DNA from: a bacterium
Lineage (GTDB): Bacteria > Patescibacteriota > Gracilibacteria > Absconditabacterales > Absconditicoccaceae
Reading direction: 5' to 3'
DNA: 64,000 nucleotides
Assembly (NCBI GenBank): GCA_023245855.1
Contig: JAHFJL010000001.1
Span: 19,975-83,974, forward strand
Position numbers and translations under genes: made by a program. Shown here one piece after another: positions 30,530 to 64,000 of the stretch; position 1 is the first letter of the stretch, and the number at the start of each line of letters is the position of its first letter. The notes below the pieces were generated by a model. That model saw nothing but the letters and a program-made list of their open reading frames with translations. It was not told the origin of the DNA and ran no database searches.

Positions 30530-32074
30530 TTATTCCGCTTCCACGAACATCGTCTTGCTTCTATACTGCATCGCTTCAGCGAGATGATTGATTGTCACCG
30601 TTTCCTGGCCTTGGATGTCGGCGATGGTCCTTGCAAGCTTAATCGTACGATGAACGATTCTCGTAGATAAGGTCAATTTTCTCGCCGCTTCCGCCAAAAA
30701 GTTTTTGCAAGGTTCGTCGAGAGGGATCAGTTCGTCGATATGCTGTGATGTGATCTGCGAGTTGGATGTGATGTTCAGTCAGATAAATCTTTTTTGTTGG
30801 ATCCTCCATGCAGAAACGACTTTTTCTCTGATGCTTTCAGAGCTCTCTCATTTGATGTTGTCGAGAATCCTATCGATATTCTCTCTCGGGATTTCAAGCA
30901 CCATATCTATCCTATCGAGCAACGGTCATGAAATTTTCGCTTGATAACGCTTGATATCCATATACGAGCAGCCACAATTCTTTTCTGGATCTTTGTAATA
31001 TCCACAGATACAAGGATTCATCGCCGCTACGAACATGAAATTTGCCGGATACTGGATGGTGCCTGAGACGCGGGAAATCACAACGCTTTTGTCTTCGAGC
31101 GGTTGGCGCAGTACCTCAAGCACTTCGCGTGGAAATTCTGTCAGCTCGTCAAAAAACAGGATTCATTTGTGTGCGAGCGAAATCTCTCACGGCGTCAAAC
31201 GCGCTCCCCCTCAAGTAATAGAGATTTTAGAAGCGGTATGATGCACCTGACGGAACGGTCTCTTGGTGATCAATGGCGTCTCTTTACTCAGCTTTCCGAC
31301 GATGGAATACACTTGTGAAACTTCCAGGATCTCCTCGAATCCCAGTGGCGGCAGGATGCTCGGCAACGCTTTGCTCAGCAATGTCTTTCCGCTTCATGGC
31401 GCTCCTACCATGATGATATTATGTAGTCCCGCTGCTGCGATACTCAATGCTCTCTTCGCCAACAGCTGTCATTTGATATGTGCGAAATCCACCTCATGTG
31501 TGTTGTTTTTTTGGTAGAGATGCTCGATATCTTTTGCTTGGTCGATAGACGAGAACGCTTTGCCGGAGACGAAATACTCTACGATCTGTTGAAATGTTTT
31601 GAGCGGATAGACCGTTATGCCGGGCACGTATTCCAGCTCGTACACGTTCTCTTCCGGCACGAAAAAATGTTTGTATCCGTTCGTCATCGCGCTGATGACA
31701 CAGGGTAACAACCCGTTCACTCTCTTGATATTTCCGTCGAGTCACAGCTCTCCAAAAAAAAGGAACTCGTCCGTCTGGAGCGAAATTTTCTCTTCATAGA
31801 TCAGCAATAAAATCGCGACCGCCATCGGCAAATCGAAGCTCGTCCCGACTTTTTTGATGTCGGAAGGCGAGAGATTGAGCACAATCTTTCTCTTGGGGAG
31901 CTCGATGTTGACATTGCGGAACGTCGCTCTCAAACGCTCTTTTGATTCTTTGATGGCGGTGTCAGGCAGCCCGACAATCTCGATGGTGGGCAGCGATTTG
32001 CTGGAGTCCGCTTCGACTATAATCTCGTGGCCTTCGAGTCCCACATTGGCATACGTCTTCACTTTTCGGATCAT
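30530..32074 (-). CDS. comM: YifB/ComM-family Mg-chelatase-like AAA+ ATPase
   Basis: N-terminus [24 protein letters not shown]...[11 protein letters not shown]. Walker region in the middle. C-terminus ...[11 protein letters not shown]...[16 protein letters not shown]. Fragments 30926-31123, 31469-31720 and 31742-32074 are in frame, and I hand-translated the 3' end to TAA at 30532-30530. Confidence 0.88.
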
Positions 32075-46141: not shown

Positions 46142-48109
46142 TTATTTTTTTAATGATGCTAAAGATTTGCTTATTTTTTTATCTCATTGAGTTTTGTTTT
46201 CTATTTTACTATGTTTACATATGGATTCATATGTAGTTTCTAGCTGTTGTCTTAAATATTCCAAACGTGTTCTATTCTCCTCAATAATATCTGACCATTT
46301 TCTACAATATACAGATACGTTATTGGTTGGAACCTTATGTATAAGTCATCTATCCTTCTCTCCCCAATTTTGATGGGATTCTATCAATTGATTGATTTCT
46401 CCACTGGTATCAAATTTATCTCAAACTAAGAAAAATTTCCAATCATAGTTGGATCAATTAAAGCGAGGCTCTTTTGTTATTACATTTAGATAATTCTTCA
46501 CCTGATCTACCTCTTTTCTTCATAGACTTATTTTAGGGTGTTTCAATTCAATCACAATATTCTTTACGTTTCATCATCTCCTGTCTTGTCTGCACATAAA
46601 AATATCCAACTCTTTGTTTTTATGCTCATTTTCGATATAAACTTTCTCATCGATCCCATAAAGAACAAACAAAAATTTCCTTAGATTCTGTTCAAAGTCA
46701 GGTTCTGCTGCTCAGATTAAAAAGTATTCATCTCAAAATAATCGATAATGGCTCTCTACCAATTTTTGCAAATTATGTACTTCATCTGCCTTTAGTTCCT
46801 CATCAAAAACATATTGCTCTAAAAACTTTATTACATTTAATCTCTCGTTTATTATATCAATAGTCCTAATTATATTAGATAGTTTTATATCTTTAAGTAA
46901 GGTACCAAACCTTTCTTTTTCCATGTCAGAAAGGGCCAAAACGTTATCTATAATATCAAAAAGTTTGTGACTATTTCCTTCTTCCAATATCGCCGATATT
47001 AATCTAATAAATATTTTTCTTTGGTCGTCTCATAATTTGGTGAATATCTTAGGCTCAACCAGATAAATTTTTTTTATTGTTTCTTTTATAATTCCTGTTT
47101 TCATTTCTCATACTATGGAATCTTCCTCATTAGTAATATCTTCGATATTGGTGTTAACATAAGTCTCGGCTAACGATTCAATGAATGGTCTTCTAAATTC
47201 ATTTAATTGTTTGTTTAGCTGAACCATAAAATCTTTGAAAGTTTCTCTATTATTTTGACTATTCTGTCCCTCAAATAAGAGATTATCTCATCCATCATTT
47301 AATATTTGCTTATCAAAAAAAGATGACTGAATAAATACGCTATGGTGGAAATCATCGGATTGTCTATTTAAGGAAGTTCATTCTTTTAATATTTCCTTGT
47401 CTGCAGAATTTATAAAATAATTTTTAGATTCTTCCTCTATGAGTTTATCTTCCCATTTTATAAATTTTATATCAAATTTTATCTTGTCTATAATTAAAGA
47501 ACTTAGCTTCTCCATAGATATGTACTTTTTATATTCCAATTCTTTCTTATTTATACGTATTGTAATTCCTTTCAATAATAAAATCCAAGAAAATCTAGCG
47601 ATTAAATATTTTTCTAAATCGGTTTCCATGAAGAATTTACTTACGCCAACATCTTCGAAACTAACTTTGGTTCCTGTATACTTACTTTTCTTAGAATTTT
47701 TATCTAAAATGTCATATTTGCTTAAATCTCTAGAAGATACTTTCAATTTTATATATCATCCCTCTTGTCTTGATTCCCACGTTGCAGAAGAAGAAAAACA
47801 GAAAAATGTCAGTCTTCATACTCAATCTTTGCCGAAGACATCTGACTTATTGAGAGATCTATTCTTCTTTGAAAAAAGAAAAACATCAAAAGTCGTAGAT
47901 AAATCTTTCTCAGAAAATCCTCCTCAATCATCAATTATTTCAAATTTAGAAATATATCAAGTATCATCAAAAACATAATTGATATCGATATTCTTTGCTT
48001 GCGCATCAATTGAATTCTCTATATATTCTGAAATCGCTTTATCGGGAGTGTAGTCCTTTAGTCTCTTTCTTATTCAATCATTAGTTACAATTAAATTTTT
48101 TTGTGCCAT
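46142..48109 (-). CDS. GHKL (HATPase_c) ATPase fused to a C-terminal PD-(D/E)xK nuclease-like domain
   Basis: N-terminus: AISEYIENSIDAQAKNIDI...FEIIDDGGGFSEKDL...FGKDGVGRLTFF (Bergerat fold motifs). C-terminus: ELDIFMCR...NIVIELKHP...VDQVKNYL (D..ExK, Shedu/DUF4263-like). 655 aa verified, about 19 TGA=Gly. Confidence 0.65.
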
Positions 48110-48135
48110 AATAGCAATTTACAAACTAAATATAT

Positions 48136-50139
48136 TTATTTATCTTTCTGACTTAAGATAAATTGATAGATATTTTCAGCAACTTCTTTAGCCTCAGCAG
48201 ATAAATCTTCATAATTGTTTATATATTTAATTGCGGTTTCATAAAATTTAACCTTATCTCGTATAGTTCATCATTTGGCCTTATATCTTGTTTTCATCTT
48301 TTTTACCAATAATTTTTTTTCTATGAATTCACCTAACTTAGTCTTTCTGTGATCTCCTATTCTTGTTTTAAATTCCACAGACTGATTTCAACATTTTTTT
48401 TCTAATTCCGTTACGGCATCTTTTAGCACGTTCAATGACAATAGATTTTCTATTTCTCTCACTGGTAATTTATTATATCTCTTTTCTAGTTTTTCTTTTA
48501 ATTTTTCTTTCCTCTCTTTTTTTCTATTTTCTCAATCTTCATCTATAATCAAAAAAGACTTACCACATAATCTATCAATATTAACTTGTTCATGTCAATT
48601 TTCATCATCTAAGAAAGAAAAATGAGTAATATTATTACCTCAATATTCAACAAAACAATAATCAATGTCTTGTTTAACTTCTATAAAATTTGGATTCTCT
48701 TTTTTTTTCTGCTTTTGATAAAGATCAAGATATCTACCTAAATACAATCTATCAGTAATACCTTCGACCCATATTGTGCTATTAGCAATAAATATAGATG
48801 ATTTTTGCACTCAGAGTTCTAGCAATATATTTTCATCACCTGACTTAATATTTTCTATGATAAATTGTTTGTTTTCTGTCTTTCTAGCCTTAAAAATTGA
48901 TATATTGTCAAAGTCCAGGGTCAGATCCAAAAAGTTATTTGAATGTGTTGTTATAAAAAACTGATGCCCAATAAAATCAGAAGTTTTAATCAAAACTTCA
49001 ATGAGTTTTCTTTGCATTCAAGGGTGTAAATATAATTCTGGTTCTTCTATAAAGAAAAGCCCGTTAGTGCATTCAAATAGCGGTAATGTAATTGTTATTA
49101 ACGTTTGTATTCAGTCTCACAGATCATAAATAGCCCTATCGTCTTCGTCTCATATTTTTATATGTAATATTCCATTTTCTTTATCTCGTTTGTCTTTATT
49201 AACATCTCTTCATAAAATATTATTATCCTTTGATATCAAAGTAATATCCTGCCCATCGAATAAATTCTCCTTCAAAAATTCCTGATATTTCTTGATTTTA
49301 TTTCTTTGATCTTGTGTTCACAAAAGCATCTTTTTTACTATTTCGTTAAGCTTTTGTCAAGAATTTATATCCACTTTATAGTCTTTCCCAGCTGTTGTAA
49401 AATAATCTTTTTTTACTTTTTCTTCAAATAAGTCATTATTAATCAAACCTCTCAAGGAATCTACTACTTTGGATGTTACGTCTGATTGAGTTCAACGTCA
49501 AGAGAACATATCTTCCACCCATTTTACTAAAGGTCATCTTATGTTATTAACAGATCTTAAGGCTGGAGTATAATTTTTTGTATAATCAACAAATTTAAAT
49601 AAAGCTAATTCATTAAGATTCTTTATAATATCTGATGCACTAGAAATTTTTTCTTTTAGTGAATTAATGAATTTAACATTTTCCATATAGATAATTCATC
49701 AACTTTGTTTTTGAGGATCACATAAAAGTATTTTATTCAACGTATTTTTCATTGATAATATATCTTCAATATTCTTTTTAGAAAAAAATATATCAAAATT
49801 TCAAGTTAAAGTTGTTTTATCTAAACTGAAAGATCACATATTAAAATTTCAAAATCAAGCATTTTGTTGGTCTCGAACTTGAAGCAAGGATTTTATTAAT
49901 TCATTTAAAGAAGTAATAAAGTCTTTAAAATTGAATGTTAATCTTGTTGGTATAAATTTAAACTCTTCTATCTTTGAAATTTCCCTCATAAAGCGACTCT
50001 TTCCAGAATTATTTGGTCATATAAAAATATTTATTTTTGATAAGCTATTTAATTCTTGCAATCTATTCCCATCATTTCAGAGAAAATCCTTAAAATTTTC
50101 ATTTTGCGGTATTTGAATTTCTTTGAAAATATAGGTCAT
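48136..50139 (-). CDS. OLD-family / PARIS-like ABC-type ATPase fused to TOPRIM (DUF4435-like) nuclease domain
   Basis: Walker A IFIGPNNSGKSRF, signature-like LGDGIQTL, Walker B GLFFIEEPELYLHP, and H-loop FFITTHSNNF. TOPRIM-like region: TIWVEGITDRLYL...FVEYGG...LIIDEDG. 667 aa verified line by line, with 25 TGA=Gly. Confidence 0.75.
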
Positions 50140-50149
50140 ATTGCAACTT

Positions 50150-50245
50150 TTACAAACTAAATATCTCTACAAACTCTCCCGCTGAAGACGGGATAGACAT
50201 CCTTTCTTCGCTTCCTTCTGCTTACGCAGCCAATCAAATGCTCAC
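50150..50245 (-). pseudogene. Degenerate duplicate of the last ~25 codons and stop of hsdR
   Basis: The first 28 nt are identical to 51030-51057, and the last 43 nt are about 80 percent identical to 51063-51105. A 25-nt hairpin-containing insert interrupts it. Confidence 0.7.
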
Positions 50246-50277
50246 CTATTAAATATTGGTTTGTCAAGCAAATTCTC

Positions 50278-50306
50278 TTGCAAAATAAGGTAGATATGAG
50301 TATAAT
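50278..50306 (+). promoter_or_regulatory. Near-consensus sigma70 promoter on the plus strand
   Basis: TTGCAA (50278-50283), exactly 17 nt, then TATAAT (50301-50306). Confidence 0.45.
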
Positions 50307-50312
50307 AATACT

Positions 50313-50382
50313 GGAATTGAAGCTCTTATCGAACTGTGGTCTTTATGGCCTGCGTTCCCTTACGGGATAGATAAGGGTTTTT
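50313..50382 (+). ncRNA. Putative ~70-nt small RNA (promoter-to-terminator unit, no ORF)
   Basis: Bounded by the promoter above and by the hairpin ccctta-cgggataga-taaggg plus T5 (50357-50382). Convergent with the DUF3800 gene, whose stop is at 50389. Confidence 0.3.
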
Positions 50383-50388
50383 CCTTTA

Positions 50389-51021
50389 TTATAATTTTTG
50401 TCTGGGTCGTTGTTGGACATTGATTTCTCTATGAGATATAAAACGACGAAAGTCATTTTTACTTTTACTGTCGCCATAATAGCGATGTATTACTCAGCAT
50501 ACATAATCTACAAGTTGGACAAGATTGTCCGTATGTGAACGGTGCATAGCTACTTTTTTAATCCTCTTACAATTTTTAGTATTCAGTTTGTTTCTTAAAT
50601 ATTTTCATAAGGCATATTTAAAACCTTCGGATCATGTTTTATCTATAATAACGGTAGCATTTTCTATTTTATCTTTTGCGTTTTCGAAAACATATCAACA
50701 TATACATTTATAAAAAGAATCTTTATACTGAAATCATTTTCATGTTACGATTTTCTTATTTAAGACAAAACCATGATAGAAAAAATTGTAATTTGCTACA
50801 GCTTCTAAAAACAATTGTCTGATTTTGTCAGAGTTTTTTTTAAAATGAAATTCAAAATTATCGTGGAGTCAAAGCTCTCTTCTTAATAAATCTATTCTTT
50901 GACTACATGCAATTGCTTCATCGTGATCGTTGAAGACAACTAATGCTATAGAAAAAAATGGACTTGATCATTGATCAAACTTAAAACCCGAATCTCCACT
51001 TTCATCTATATAAATAAGCAT
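50389..51021 (-). CDS. DUF3800-family protein
   Basis: MLIYIDESGDSG... and C-terminal HRSHTDNLVQLVDYVCGVIHRY are DUF3800 hallmarks. 210 aa, 9 TGA=Gly. Starts 8 nt after the hsdR stop. Confidence 0.7.
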
Positions 51022-61450: not shown

Positions 61451-61600
61451 ATTCTGCATCTTTTCAAAGAATTGTAAATACAAAACAATATATAATGAAA
61501 AATTAATAATGAATAATTAATAATGTCGGAAAATATTATATAAAAAGATTCCATCATCATTCATCATTCACTACACTTTTAATTGTTAGTTGGTAAAGTA

Positions 61601-63811
61601 ATGGCTATCTACAAAATCAGGAAACGTAATGGAGCGATCATCGACTTTGATATCAGCAAAATCGAATATGCCGTAAAAAGCGCTATAGAATCTGTCGGAG
61701 GGACAGACTTCACCCAAGTATCTTCGCTCGCAAACAAAATAGGAAAAGAGATAGAGAAGAAAGTGAACAAAGAGATTCCTGATGTAGAGATCGTGCAAGA
61801 TATCGTAGAACAGGTCTTGATTAAAGAAGGACATGATAAAGTAGCAAAAGCCTATATCCTCTACCGCAAACAAAGAGAACAATCCAGATCAGAAAAGAAT
61901 GTTGTCGTAGAAGTGGGAAAGACTATGGATGAATACCTCCAACAAAGCGATTGGAGAGTCAACGCAAATAGCAACCAAGGATATTCACTCGGAGGACTTA
62001 TCTTGAATGTTTCCGGAAAAGTGATCGCTAACTACTGGCTTTCTCACGTCTATCCTGCAGAAATAGGAAACGCTCACAGAACGGGAGAGATTCATATCCA
62101 TGACTTAGATATGTTTTCTGGATACTGTGCAGGACGAAGTTTGAGGCAATTGCTTGAAGAAGGATTCAACGGACTTTCAAATAGGGTGCAATCCGCTCCG
62201 CCAAAAAATCTCCAGGCGGCGGTCAACCAGATGATTAACTTCTTCTGAACTTTACAGAACGAATGGGCGGGTGCTCAAGCATTCTCATCATTCGATACTT
62301 ACCTTGCTCCGTTTGTACACAAATACAGAATGGAATTAGAAAAAGATCTTGATGACTTGTGAGTACAATTCCCTTCTGAAGAAGCAAGAAAAGAACATAT
62401 CGCAAAAACTACCCATAAATATGTCACTCAGCAGATGCAAAATTTCGTCTTTGGACTTAACGTACCTTCACGCTGGGGAACGCAAACACCGTTCACGAAT
62501 ATCACGCTTGATCGGACTTGTCCTGAAGATCTCAAAGAAAAATCGCTTATGCTTTGAGGGATAGAGAAATGATATTATTACAAAAAATTCAGCGAACTTG
62601 ATGAAGAGATGAAGCTCATCAATAGAGTCTTGATTGAAGTCTATACGGCAGGAGATTGGACAGGATCAGTATTCACCTTTCCTATCCCAACTTATAATAT
62701 CACTGAAGACTTTCCACGAGAGGATCCAGATGTAAATCTTCTCTTCGAAATGACAGCTAAATACGGGATCCCTTACTTTCAAAACTTCGTAGGATCGCAA
62801 TTCAAAGTCAGCAAAGACAAAGACGGGAAAGTCACTAAAGTAGAAAATCCTGATGCCTACAAACCGGGAGCAGTAAGATCGATGTGCTGTAGATTGCAGC
62901 TTGACCTTACCCAGCTAGAAAAAAGATGAGGAGGCCTCTTCGGATCAGCAGAAATGACGTGATCCATTGGAGTCGTAACTATCAATATGGCCAGAATCGG
63001 ATATAATTTTAAATGAGATATGGCGGGGTTCAAAGCACATGTCCATTACCTTATGAACCTTTCAAAAATATCTCTTGAGCTCAAAAGAAAAGAGATTACC
63101 AGATGGTTGGATATGGGTCTCTATCCTTATACCAAGAGATATCTCCATTCATTCAGAAACCATTTCTCTACTATCGGCCTCAACGGTATGAACGAAGCTA
63201 TCCAAAACTTCACGAACGGTAAGGAAGACATCTCTACTGATGAGGGAAAGAAATTCACAATCGAGATCTTAGATTTTATGAGAGATATCCTCAAACAATA
63301 CCAAGAAGAGACGGAAAACCTCTACAATCTTGAAGCTACACCAGCAGAAGGGACTACGTATAGATTCGCTAAAGAAGATAAGAAGCAGATCCCGAACATC
63401 ATCCAAGCAGGAACGAATGATGCTCCTTACTATACCAATTCAACCCAGCTGCCTGTAGGATATACTGACGATCCGTTTGAAGCGCTCGAACAGCAAAATG
63501 AAATGCAATGCAAATATACATGAGGAACAGTACTTCACCTGTATATGTGAGAAAGACTTTCAGACGCTAAAGCATGCAAACAATTAGTAAAAAAAGTCAT
63601 TGATAATTATCAGCTTCCGTATATAACTATCTCACCCGTCTTCTCTATCTGTCCAAAACATGGATATGTCATCGGAGAACACGATTTCTGTCCAAAATGC
63701 GATAAAGAGCTTGGATACACGGGAGATGAATTTAATATTGATATCAGACAAAAACATACTTCTGACCCTGAAAAACTCAGGATTATCAGAGAAAAACAAT
63801 TCACGGAATAA
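61601..63811 (+). CDS. nrdD: Anaerobic ribonucleoside-triphosphate reductase, large part (lacks glycyl-radical tail)
   Basis: ATP-cone MAIYKIRKRNGAIIDFDISKI. GEIHIHDLDMFSGYCAG. SMCCRLQLDL. GGGLFGSAEMTGSIGVVTIN. Zn-site ICPKHGYVIGEHDFCPKC. Fragments 61583-62248, 62609-62929 and 63020-63523 are in frame via TGA. TAA stop at 63809-63811. Confidence 0.9.
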
Positions 63812-63876
63812 TGTATAGCATAAAGCCAAAAGCGTAAAGCAGAAAAAAATCTTTTAACTTTTAACAAAATTGCCCC

Positions 63877-64000
63877 ATGAAAGCATTCTACAACAAAGAA
63901 GGAAAAGAAATTCAAAGAACTCCCTGCCAAGTCTATACGAGAGTTATGGGATACCTCAGACCGGTGAGTCATTACAATATCGGTAAAAAATCAGAATTCT
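63877..64000 (+). CDS. NrdD glycyl-radical C-terminal domain as a separate ORF (3' end outside window)
   Basis: MKAFYNKEGKEIQRTPCQVYTRVMGYLRPVSHYNIGKKSEF contains the RV.GY.RPV...N.GK..E glycyl-radical signature. It is in a different frame and starts 65 nt after the nrdD stop. Confidence 0.7.
   Translation, partial: MKAFYNKEGKEIQRTPCQVYTRVMGYLRPVSHYNIGKKSEF

What the first reader, a model, noticed from the sequence alone, without database searches (positions are those of the whole stretch)
63690..64000. nrdD is split: the glycyl-radical domain is a separate small ORF
The large NrdD ORF runs through the Zn-site (ICPKHGY...CPKC). It then diverges into about 35 non-canonical residues and stops at TAA 63809-63811. 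Sixty-five nt later, in another frame, a new ORF starts (ATG 63877). This ORF encodes ...TPCQVYTRVMGYLRPVSHYNIGKKSEF, the canonical glycyl-radical motif that normally ends NrdD. Relative to canonical NrdD there is therefore an insertion of roughly 230 nt containing a stop and a frame change. One reading is a two-piece enzyme, conceptually like the spare-part protein GrcA/YfiD for pyruvate formate-lyase. The other readings are a fresh pseudogene or a sequencing error.
Basis: partly seen in the sequence, partly recalled or inferred. Interest (0 to 1): 0.6.

Follow-up and report, generated by a model that had tools for sequence, protein, structure and literature searches.

The report
Two-gene anaerobic ribonucleotide reductase
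In this uncultured groundwater bacterium, and in about 70 related species, the oxygen-sensitive enzyme that makes DNA building blocks is encoded as two genes: a 736-residue catalytic body and a separate ~72-residue protein carrying the radical glycine. The split is real and conserved, not a broken gene or a sequencing error, and I found no description of it in the literature I could search.

Summary

**What is in the window**
- nrdD (61601-63811) encodes the ATP-cone, the barrel and the zinc ribbon, followed by 36 extra residues and a TAA stop.
- After a 65-nt spacer, a new ORF starts at ATG 63877 in another frame and carries the RVMGY glycyl-radical loop. The window end cuts it off.

**Why it is not a pseudogene or an error**
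- 74 related loci show the same layout: TAA or TAG stop, a spacer of 11-303 nt, all three frame offsets, and an own ATG behind the lineage's usual T-rich start motif.
- nrdG usually follows directly.
- Both the large-chain tail and the small-chain head are under strong purifying selection (dN/dS 0.05-0.13).
- An independent assembly of the source run matches the junction exactly.

**Wider picture**
- The closest full-length relatives outside the clade are single-chain, with 8-16-residue linkers.
- Large chains without the radical loop also occur in other lineages; two checked loci carry a separate small radical-loop gene.
- One relative (L077) has re-fused, but this depends on a single A in a homopolymer.

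The small protein is the regular radical subunit, not a GrcA-type spare part. I found no paper describing a split NrdD.

The parts
61601..63811 (+). nrdD large chain: 736 codons plus TAA, read with code 25 (9 in-frame TGA = Gly)
   Evidence: NF006126 1005 bits (cut-off 548), profile covered up to 651 of 684; Pfam NRDD 2-529 of 562
61613..61879 (+). ATP-cone (aa 5-93)
   Evidence: PF03477, 69.9 bits
62885..62890 (+). Cys-Cys of the finger loop (S-M-C-C-R-L), the double-cysteine MCCR type
   Evidence: sequence; invariant C429 and C430 in alignment A4; motif classes described in PMC9669993
63650..63700 (+). Zinc ribbon C-x2-H ... C-x2-C, retained on the large chain
   Evidence: sequence; C684, H687, C697 and C700 invariant in A4
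63701..63808 (+). 36-residue clade-specific tail of the large chain (DKELGYTGDEFNIDIRQKHTSDPEKLRIIREKQFTE)
   Evidence: conserved in the related loci; dN/dS 0.049 for aa 1-26 and 0.13 for aa 27-36
63809..63811 (+). TAA stop of the large chain
   Evidence: relatives use TAA 58 times and TAG 16 times
63812..63876 (+). 65-nt intergenic spacer: unstructured, no terminator, no Rfam match
   Evidence: fold z = +1.43; in 13 close relatives spacers are only 43% identical and 30-176 nt long
63850..63865 (+). T-rich, G-free start-associated motif TCTTTTAACTTTTAAC, 12-27 nt before the ATG; there is no Shine-Dalgarno site
   Evidence: 63 of 74 small ORFs carry TTTTA or CTTTA at -32..-7, against 9.8% of random positions; a similar motif precedes many other window genes, including nrdD itself
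63877..64000 (+). 5' part of the small-chain gene (41 of an expected ~72 codons; cut by the window end)
   Evidence: the closest complete relative, L081, has a called 72-aa gene followed after 1 nt by nrdG
63940..63954 (+). Glycyl-radical loop R-V-M-G-Y; the radical glycine codon GGA is at 63949-63951
   Evidence: R, V, M, G invariant (Y in at least 90%) in 54 small chains and all five invariant in 38 single-chain relatives

Best explanation
This is a genuine, long-conserved gene fission of the class III (anaerobic) ribonucleotide reductase.

The enzyme is made from two separately translated polypeptides:
- An ~85-kDa large chain: ATP-cone, alpha/beta barrel with an MCCR finger loop, zinc ribbon, and a conserved 22-44-residue tail.
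- An ~8-kDa small chain: a short beta-hairpin head, the RVMGY radical loop, a GKKSEFYSR.YF helix, and often a C-terminal Cys pair.

Shown here:
- The two ORFs, their conservation, and their independent start signals.
- Purifying selection on both new termini.
- The nrdD-large / small / nrdG gene order.
- A break that falls exactly in the linker between the zinc ribbon and the Gly loop. That linker is only 8-16 residues long in the sister single-chain clade.

Inferred:
- The small chain docks non-covalently so that its Gly loop enters the barrel next to the finger-loop cysteines, as the covalent C-terminus does in solved NrdD structures.
- NrdG puts the radical on the small chain's glycine, either on the free chain or on the complex.
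- The clade-specific tail and head provide the extra binding surface that replaces the lost covalent link.

Because the large chain has no radical loop, the small chain is the obligatory radical subunit, not a spare.
For: - Profiles are partitioned cleanly, with no loss: Pfam NRDD 2-529 | 531-556; NF006126 ...651 | 650-683.
- More than 100 relatives at 69-92% identity are nearly all 733-742 aa long.
- 74 loci are split, with TAA or TAG stops, spacers of 11-303 nt, and frame offsets 21/27/26.
- Every small ORF has an ATG, and 63 of 74 have the lineage start motif, against 9.8% of background positions. A similar motif precedes many other window genes.
- dN/dS: tail 0.049 and 0.13, head 0.085, Gly-loop region 0.023, body 0.032. 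The spacer is only 43% identical.
- An NrdG-type radical SAM gene lies within 1.5 kb downstream in 58 of 73 loci, often abutting. In L081 it scores 190.8 bits on TIGR02495 (cut-off 131).
- 467 clusters of stand-alone proteins related to the small chain (listed ones 59-113 aa) exist in public data.
- An independent assembly of the source run matches the junction exactly.
- The split clade is monophyletic (100/100), with a mostly single-chain, short-linker sister clade.
- The AF2 model of the naturally fused relative L077 matches solved class III RNRs (TM up to 0.79). The position equivalent to the split lies between a helix and a hairpin, in a region of pLDDT 52-67.
- Other lineages show the same split with a separate small gene (L084 and L086).
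Against: - There is no direct evidence that either protein is made. The only RNA run from the sample had no coverage.
- No complex, radical or enzyme activity has been measured.
- The window ends inside the small ORF, so its 3' end and nrdG are inferred from the 92-94% identical relative L081.
- The AF2 confidence for the tail and head region is only moderate, and no multimer model could be run.
Confidence: 0.85

Rival explanations
1. Recoding produces a single chain. The ribosome would read through the stop, shift frame, or bypass the spacer, so the two ORFs would be joined during translation.
For: In 11 of the 21 in-frame loci, the ORF1 stop is the only in-frame stop before the small ORF. 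In the L077/L082 lineage, one A in an A5/A6 run toggles between a fused ORF and two overlapping ORFs.
Against: Frame offsets are spread evenly (21/27/26). Spacers range from 11 to 303 nt and are poorly conserved. Ten of the 21 in-frame spacers hold further stops. Every small ORF keeps its own ATG and the start motif. The spacer has no structure and no Rfam match.
Confidence: 0.04
2. GrcA-type spare part. A complete NrdD would exist elsewhere in the genome, and the small ORF would only repair oxygen-cleaved enzyme.
For: The small chain is a small autonomous protein with a radical-glycine loop, like GrcA. Earlier notes from this scan report lone copies of such genes on phage contigs (not tested here).
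Against: The adjacent large chain lacks any radical loop, so it needs this protein to work at all. The small protein matches the NrdD profiles, not the PFL-type Gly_radical family. Only one copy was seen per locus and in the 64-kb window. An earlier scan note says that pre-set tests of the spare-part idea failed elsewhere.
Confidence: 0.05
3. Pseudogene. nrdD would have been recently broken by an insertion and would be decaying.
For: A stop and a frame change interrupt what is a single gene in most organisms.
Against: The same break is found in 74 loci across a clade whose members are as little as 61-70% identical. dN/dS on both sides of the break is 0.02-0.13.
Confidence: 0.02
4. Sequencing or assembly error at the junction.
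For: None at this locus. One relative (L077 against L082) does differ by a single homopolymer base.
Against: Logan's independent assembly of run X1 covers 63300-63908 with 0 differences and 0 gaps. Dozens of independent assemblies show the same architecture.
Confidence: 0.01
5. The pieces are rejoined after transcription or translation, by a self-splicing intron in the spacer or by a split intein.
For: Phage T4 nrdD carries a group I intron (established knowledge). Some related large chains carry inteins (L086).
Against: Rfam finds nothing at E up to 10 apart from two chance-level hits. Many spacers are only 11-30 nt long. Pfam finds no intein domain in either piece. The tail starts with Asp, and the head lacks the His-Asn/Cys junction residues that inteins require (from the sequence).
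Confidence: 0.02

Closest known systems
Canonical single-chain class III RNR NrdD with activase NrdG (T. maritima 4COI/4U3E, P. copri 8P23, S. thermophilus 9D3X, phage T4 1H78; NCBIfam NF006126 and TIGR02487)
   Same: It has an ATP-cone, a barrel, an MCCR finger loop, a zinc ribbon, an RVxGY loop and an adjacent NrdG2-type activase. The fused relative's model matches these structures.
   Different: The polypeptide is cut between the zinc ribbon and the Gly loop. The large chain gains a conserved 22-44-aa tail, and the small chain gains an N-terminal head of up to about 15 aa and often a C-terminal Cys pair.
GrcA/YfiD, the autonomous glycyl-radical cofactor ('spare part') for pyruvate formate-lyase
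   Same: It is a small free-standing protein carrying the radical glycine, and it is presumably activated by the cognate radical-SAM activase.
   Different: GrcA backs up a complete PFL that has its own radical domain. Here there is no built-in loop, so the small chain is obligatory. The sequence families also differ (NrdD against PFL-type). The 2026 review PMC13450708 states that spare-part proteins are known only for formate lyases.
Split class II RNR NrdJa/NrdJb of Pseudomonas aeruginosa (PMC4520616)
   Same: It is a ribonucleotide reductase whose catalytic polypeptide is naturally encoded as two adjacent genes.
   Different: It belongs to a different RNR class and uses a different cofactor (B12). 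In that system the detached piece does not carry the radical site (my own knowledge; only the title and the start of the abstract were seen).
Phage T4 nrdD (sunY) group I intron
   Same: It is an nrdD gene interrupted at the DNA level.
   Different: The T4 intron is spliced out to give a single chain. Here there is no intron-like RNA, and the two ORFs have their own stop and start.

Membership tests
Class III RNR NrdD (NF006126 / TIGR02487 / PF13597) | Catalytic body scores above the curated family cut-off | tested here: met
   NF006126 1005.3 bits (cut-off 548); TIGR02487 422.6 bits (cut-off 326); PF13597 540 bits
Class III RNR NrdD (NF006126 / TIGR02487 / PF13597) | Finger-loop cysteine(s) for the thiyl radical | tested here: met
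   S-M-C-C-R-L at 62882-62893; C429 and C430 invariant in A4
Class III RNR NrdD (NF006126 / TIGR02487 / PF13597) | C-terminal zinc ribbon | tested here: met
   C-x2-H-x9-C-x2-C at 63650-63700, invariant
Class III RNR NrdD (NF006126 / TIGR02487 / PF13597) | Radical glycine loop (RVxGY) on the same polypeptide as the barrel | tested here: not met
   The loop lies on a separate ORF that starts at 63877, after a TAA and a 65-nt spacer. The same is true in 74 related loci
Class III RNR NrdD (NF006126 / TIGR02487 / PF13597) | Cognate radical-SAM activase NrdG encoded nearby | tested here: inconclusive
   The window ends before it. In L081 (92-94% identical) TIGR02495 NrdG2 scores 190.8 bits and starts 1 nt after the small gene's stop. 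An NrdG-like gene is present in 58 of 73 related loci
Class III RNR NrdD (NF006126 / TIGR02487 / PF13597) | Glycyl radical formation and NTP reduction | not testable with these tools
   Needs anaerobic biochemistry and EPR
GrcA/YfiD spare-part protein | Homology to the PFL-type glycyl-radical domain (Pfam Gly_radical) | tested here: not met
   The small chain matches only PF13597 NRDD, and NrdD models in NCBIfam. The fold search of the small-chain model gave no significant match
GrcA/YfiD spare-part protein | Coexists with a parent enzyme that has its own radical domain | tested here: not met
   The adjacent large chain ends after the zinc ribbon plus tail. The rest of the genome could not be searched
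GrcA/YfiD spare-part protein | Small autonomous protein bearing the radical glycine | tested here: met
   Small chains are 50-86 aa with an invariant RVMG and a nearly invariant Y
Group I intron-interrupted nrdD (T4 type) | Intron RNA fold between the exons | tested here: not met
   No Rfam match. The spacer is unstructured. Spacers are as short as 11 nt
Split intein | Intein splicing domain or junction residues at the break | tested here: not met
   No intein Pfam match in the tail or head. The junction residues are absent from the sequence

The most novel reading that the evidence does not exclude
The 8-kDa chain could be a free, exchangeable radical cartridge. NrdG would charge it off the enzyme, which avoids the large domain flip that single-chain glycyl-radical enzymes need for activation. 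It would then dock through its hairpin head and the large chain's conserved tail. After oxygen cleavage, only this small chain would need replacing, not the 85-kDa body. Its C-terminal Cys pair sits on the large chain's tail instead in L020 and L046. That pair could shuttle reducing equivalents into the MCCR active site, as the C-terminal cysteines of class I and II RNRs do.
Probability: 0.12. Interest if true: 0.8.

Novelty: new variant of a known kind. Interest (0 to 1): 0.58.

Why it matters
All characterised glycyl-radical enzymes carry the radical glycine on the catalytic polypeptide. The only known free-standing radical module is GrcA for pyruvate formate-lyase. A 2026 review states that it is undetermined whether such proteins exist for other glycyl-radical enzymes (PMC13450708).

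- An obligatory two-chain class III RNR, conserved across the code-25 Gracilibacteria/Absconditabacteria clade and present in other lineages and phage-like contigs, gives a natural system for open questions. How does the activase reach the glycine? How is the radical loop held in the barrel? Does splitting lower the cost of oxygen damage?
- It also matters for annotation. Standard pipelines label the large chain as a complete ribonucleoside triphosphate reductase and the small one as 'hypothetical protein'. Metabolic reconstructions of these reduced-genome bacteria may therefore misjudge whether the enzyme is intact.
- The same architecture has already been noted repeatedly elsewhere in this scan. 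This locus therefore adds a well-sampled clade, a polarity (short-linker single chain, then a long insert, then a split), and a candidate re-fusion. It is not a first sighting.

Tried and rejected
I therefore could not extend the window, search the genome for other nrdD or small-gene copies, or confirm nrdG in this genome.
- The Rfam scan of 63000-64000 gave only chance-level hits.
- The RNA run from the source sample had no coverage.
- Alignment A1 (fused protein plus large and small chains) and alignment A3 were misaligned by MAFFT: the short chains were scattered, or the radical loop was aligned to the tail. Both were discarded. A4, built from single-chain relatives only, was used for the model.
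- The fold search with the small-chain model (pTM 0.29) gave no match below E = 1, so it says nothing about resemblance to GrcA.
- I first read L077 as a clean natural re-fusion, and weakened this after L082 showed a one-base A5/A6 difference. Run X5 supports A6 at ~3x depth but may be L077's own sample.
- There is no Shine-Dalgarno site before the small ORFs (1 of 75). I did not take this as evidence against translation, because many window genes also lack one and carry a similar T-rich motif.
- Six literature phrases for a split NrdD returned 0 papers. Other searches found nothing on it either.
- Whether L045 and L073 (no TGA in nrdD) use the standard code was left unresolved.
Full report
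**1. The observation**

Under the standard bacterial code the nrdD region is a string of ORF fragments. The breaks are in-frame TGA codons. Under table 25 (TGA = Gly) there is a single 736-codon ORF from ATG 61601 to TAA 63809-63811.

Seven of its 9 TGA codons fall in columns that are filled in 37 full-length single-chain relatives. Gly is the majority residue in all 7, and is 37 of 37 in 4 of them. The window therefore comes from a code-25 bacterium. The closest relatives are labelled Absconditabacterales, SR1 or Gracilibacteria, and the reads come from a groundwater metagenome.

The large ORF contains an ATP-cone and the NrdD body up to Pfam profile position 529 of 562, including the zinc ribbon CPKH...CPKC at 63650-63700. 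Thirty-six residues that match no NrdD profile follow, and then the stop.

After a 65-nt spacer, ATG 63877 opens an ORF in another frame. It matches profile positions 531-556 and carries RVMGY, with the radical Gly codon at 63949-63951. The window end cuts it at codon 41. NCBIfam NF006126 is partitioned in the same way, with the large chain covering up to 651 and the small chain 650-683 of 684.

**2. Not an error and not a pseudogene**

Logan's independent assembly of the best-matching DNA run covers 63300-63908 with no difference and no gap.

A protein search with the large chain returned more than 100 relatives at 69-92% identity, and nearly all are 733-742 aa long. I fetched 80 related loci from species-representative genomes, plus the 92-94% identical L081. 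Seventy-four loci have the same layout:
- The large ORF ends in TAA (58 loci) or TAG (16 loci).
- The spacer is 11-303 nt long, with a median of 46.
- The small ORF is 50-86 aa long.
- The frame offset between the ORFs is spread evenly (21/27/26).
- Ten of the 21 in-frame spacers contain further in-frame stops.

This spread argues against any read-through, frameshift or bypass mechanism.

Among 13 close relatives:

| Segment | dN/dS |
|---|---|
| Tail, first 26 residues | 0.049 |
| Tail, last 10 residues | 0.13 |
| Small-chain head | 0.085 |
| Gly-loop region | 0.023 |
| 100 body codons before the tail | 0.032 |

Synonymous sites are near saturation, so these ratios are rough. The spacers of the same 13 loci are only 43% identical and 30-176 nt long. 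Both new termini are therefore translated, in the annotated frames, and are under constraint.

**3. Independent expression signals**

None of the small ORFs has a usable Shine-Dalgarno site (1 of 75). All begin with ATG. They are preceded by a T-rich, almost G-free stretch with consensus TTTTTTTTTTTTTTTAAC at about -28 to -11. Sixty-three of 74 have TTTTA or CTTTA at -32..-7, against 9.8% of random positions.

In the window, a similar CTTTTA-type motif stands before many of the 43 long ORFs, including nrdD itself. It is therefore likely the usual gene-start signal of this lineage, and the small ORF has one of its own (63850-63865).

The spacer has no terminator, no stable structure (z = +1.43) and no Rfam match. 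Co-transcription with separate initiation is the simplest reading.

**4. Operon**

In L081 the gene order is pyruvate kinase, nrdD (736 aa), a called 72-aa gene with a Pfam NRDD hit, and a 236-aa radical SAM gene that begins 1 nt after the small gene's stop. That last gene is NrdG2: TIGR02495 at 190.8 bits, cut-off 131.

An NrdG-like ORF lies within 1.5 kb downstream on the same strand in 58 of 73 loci, often overlapping or abutting. In some Absconditabacterales loci another gene sits in between; in L001 it encodes an HD-domain protein.

**5. Where the break falls, and how the pieces probably fit**

[quoted passage not shown] It shows that this domain is highly mobile (PMC11226230). Here the cut lies inside that domain, in the linker between the zinc ribbon and the Gly loop.

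In the sister clade of single-chain enzymes this linker is only 8-16 residues long.

In the split clade the large chain carries a conserved tail, D-E-GY-G--[FY][DN]---R--[HY]T-D--K... The small chain in many lineages carries a head, M--F-NK-G-E--RT-C.

An AlphaFold2 model of the one naturally fused relative (L077, 785 aa, pLDDT 78.8, pTM 0.76) matches solved class III RNRs; the top 36 hits have TM up to 0.79. In that model:
- The tail region is a short helix, then a low-confidence stretch (pLDDT about 52), then a helix at 723-729.
- The head forms a beta-hairpin (732-734 and 740-742) next to the Gly-loop strands.
- The position equivalent to the split lies between that helix and the hairpin.

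The small chain modelled alone keeps the hairpin and the Gly-loop strands at pLDDT 78-85, but overall it has no confident globular fold (pTM 0.29).

I infer the following, without having shown it. The small chain docks non-covalently with its loop in the barrel. The tail and head supply the binding energy lost with the peptide bond. NrdG activates the glycine on the small chain.

**6. Evolution**

In a careful tree of the region up to the zinc ribbon:
- The code-25 split clade is monophyletic (100/100).
- At its base lie L073 (split) and P0391 (a single chain with a 56-residue linker containing a KFDLETR-like stretch; its position is only weakly supported).
- The sister clade is mostly single-chain with short linkers.

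The likely order is short linker, then a long insert, then fission.

The exhaustive representative search shows that the phenomenon is wider. Of the 150 best representatives, at least 63 end just after the zinc ribbon with no radical loop, and 56 have the loop. I checked two of them:
- L084, in a phage-like context with MazG and DnaB, has the order nrdD, DUF7487, nrdG, 61-aa small gene.
- L086 has an intein-bearing nrdD, then a 45-aa small gene, then nrdG.

Loop-less forms fall in several clades of the tree, so the fission seems to have happened more than once. This agrees with earlier notes from this scan on other phyla, which I treated as leads only.

**7. The apparent re-fusion**

L077 nests deep inside the split clade, as sister to the split L042 (100/99). 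Relative to L042 it lacks about 64 nt: the stop, the spacer and the start. This joins tail to head in frame.

A contig from another run (L082) is identical across the junction except for an A5 run in place of A6. That difference leaves two overlapping ORFs.

Contigs of run X5 support A6 at about 3x depth, but X5 may be L077's own sample. If the fused form is real, it shows that the two chains can work as one. I do not rest the case on it.

**8. Comparison with known systems, and novelty**

By sequence and fold this is class III RNR. It fails one defining feature of the family as described, namely that the radical glycine sits on the catalytic chain.

It works like GrcA/YfiD only in being a free radical-bearing mini-protein. 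It is not homologous to GrcA. It is also not a spare, because the large chain has no loop of its own.

A split RNR is documented for class II: NrdJa/NrdJb of P. aeruginosa (PMC4520616).

I found no paper that describes a split NrdD. The 2026 glycyl-radical-enzyme review says that spare-part proteins are known only for formate lyases.

Public annotation already calls the small ORFs as separate genes, naming them 'hypothetical protein' or 'anaerobic ribonucleoside-triphosphate reductase'.

I therefore rate this as a new variant of a known kind. It is real and conserved, and of clear interest to RNR and radical-enzyme specialists. It has, however, been seen repeatedly elsewhere in this scan, and no biochemical evidence exists yet.

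**9. Limits**

The 3' end of the small gene and nrdG in this genome are therefore inferred from L081. The absence of other nrdD or small-gene copies is untested beyond the 64-kb window.
- No expression data were available.

Noticed in passing
window 1-64000 (e.g. nrdD 61601-63811): The window needs genetic code 25 (TGA = Gly). nrdD has 9 in-frame TGA codons; 7 of them fall in columns where Gly is the majority residue of the single-chain relatives. This code is already known for this lineage.
   Followed up: partly
window, upstream of many gene starts (e.g. 61571-61600, 63850-63865; minus-strand starts near 32074 and 55240): Genes lack Shine-Dalgarno sites. Many instead carry a CTTTTA / TTTTA...TTAAC-type T-rich, G-free motif 10-30 nt before the ATG. 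Longer variants such as ACTTTTAGTTGTTAGTT recur before several genes, and GATATTTAGTTTGTAA stands before three consecutive genes at 46142-51021. Whether this is a promoter or a translation signal is unknown.
   Followed up: partly
small chains of L001-L015, L029, L030, L043, L048, L079, L081; large-chain tails of L020 and L046: Many small chains end in a Cys pair (CGC, CPC, CAC, CEC). Thirty of 71 have at least 2 Cys in the last 15 residues. In two loci whose small chain lacks the pair, it sits on the large chain's tail instead (CECC, CC). Many loop-less large chains from other lineages also end in Cys pairs. This resembles the C-terminal redox-shuttle cysteines of class I and II RNRs (PMC5704485). 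The finger loop here is the MCCR type.
   Followed up: partly
L077:8168-8178 against L082: A single A (A6 against A5) switches this lineage between one fused 785-aa nrdD and two overlapping ORFs. Both contigs lack ~64 nt (stop, spacer and start) that are present in the sister L042.
   Followed up: partly
P0121-P0270; L086:22-1920: Many of the nearest loop-less NrdD representatives are 900-1800 aa long and align in 3-5 separate stretches, which suggests inteins or other inserts. L086 has a Pfam Intein_splicing hit.
   Followed up: partly
L084:2501-6523: On a phage-like contig (MazG and DnaB upstream) the order is loop-less nrdD, DUF7487, nrdG, then a 61-aa radical-loop gene. So the small gene comes after the activase, not before it.
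   Followed up: no
L001:8753-9730 and the equivalent gaps in L003, L007, L008, L010, L011, L013, L030: Between the small gene and nrdG there are 500-1300 extra bases. In L001 they encode a 325-aa HD-domain protein (PF01966), possibly a nucleotide phosphohydrolase linked to dNTP metabolism.
   Followed up: partly
spacers of L017, L032, L038, L041, L050, L076: These loci have unusually long spacers (222-303 nt) between the large and small genes. Their content was not examined.
   Followed up: no
L045 and L073: These two split loci have no in-frame TGA in nrdD at all (GC 53% and 37%). They may be standard-code or TGA-poor lineages, which would place the split outside strict code-25 users.
   Followed up: partly
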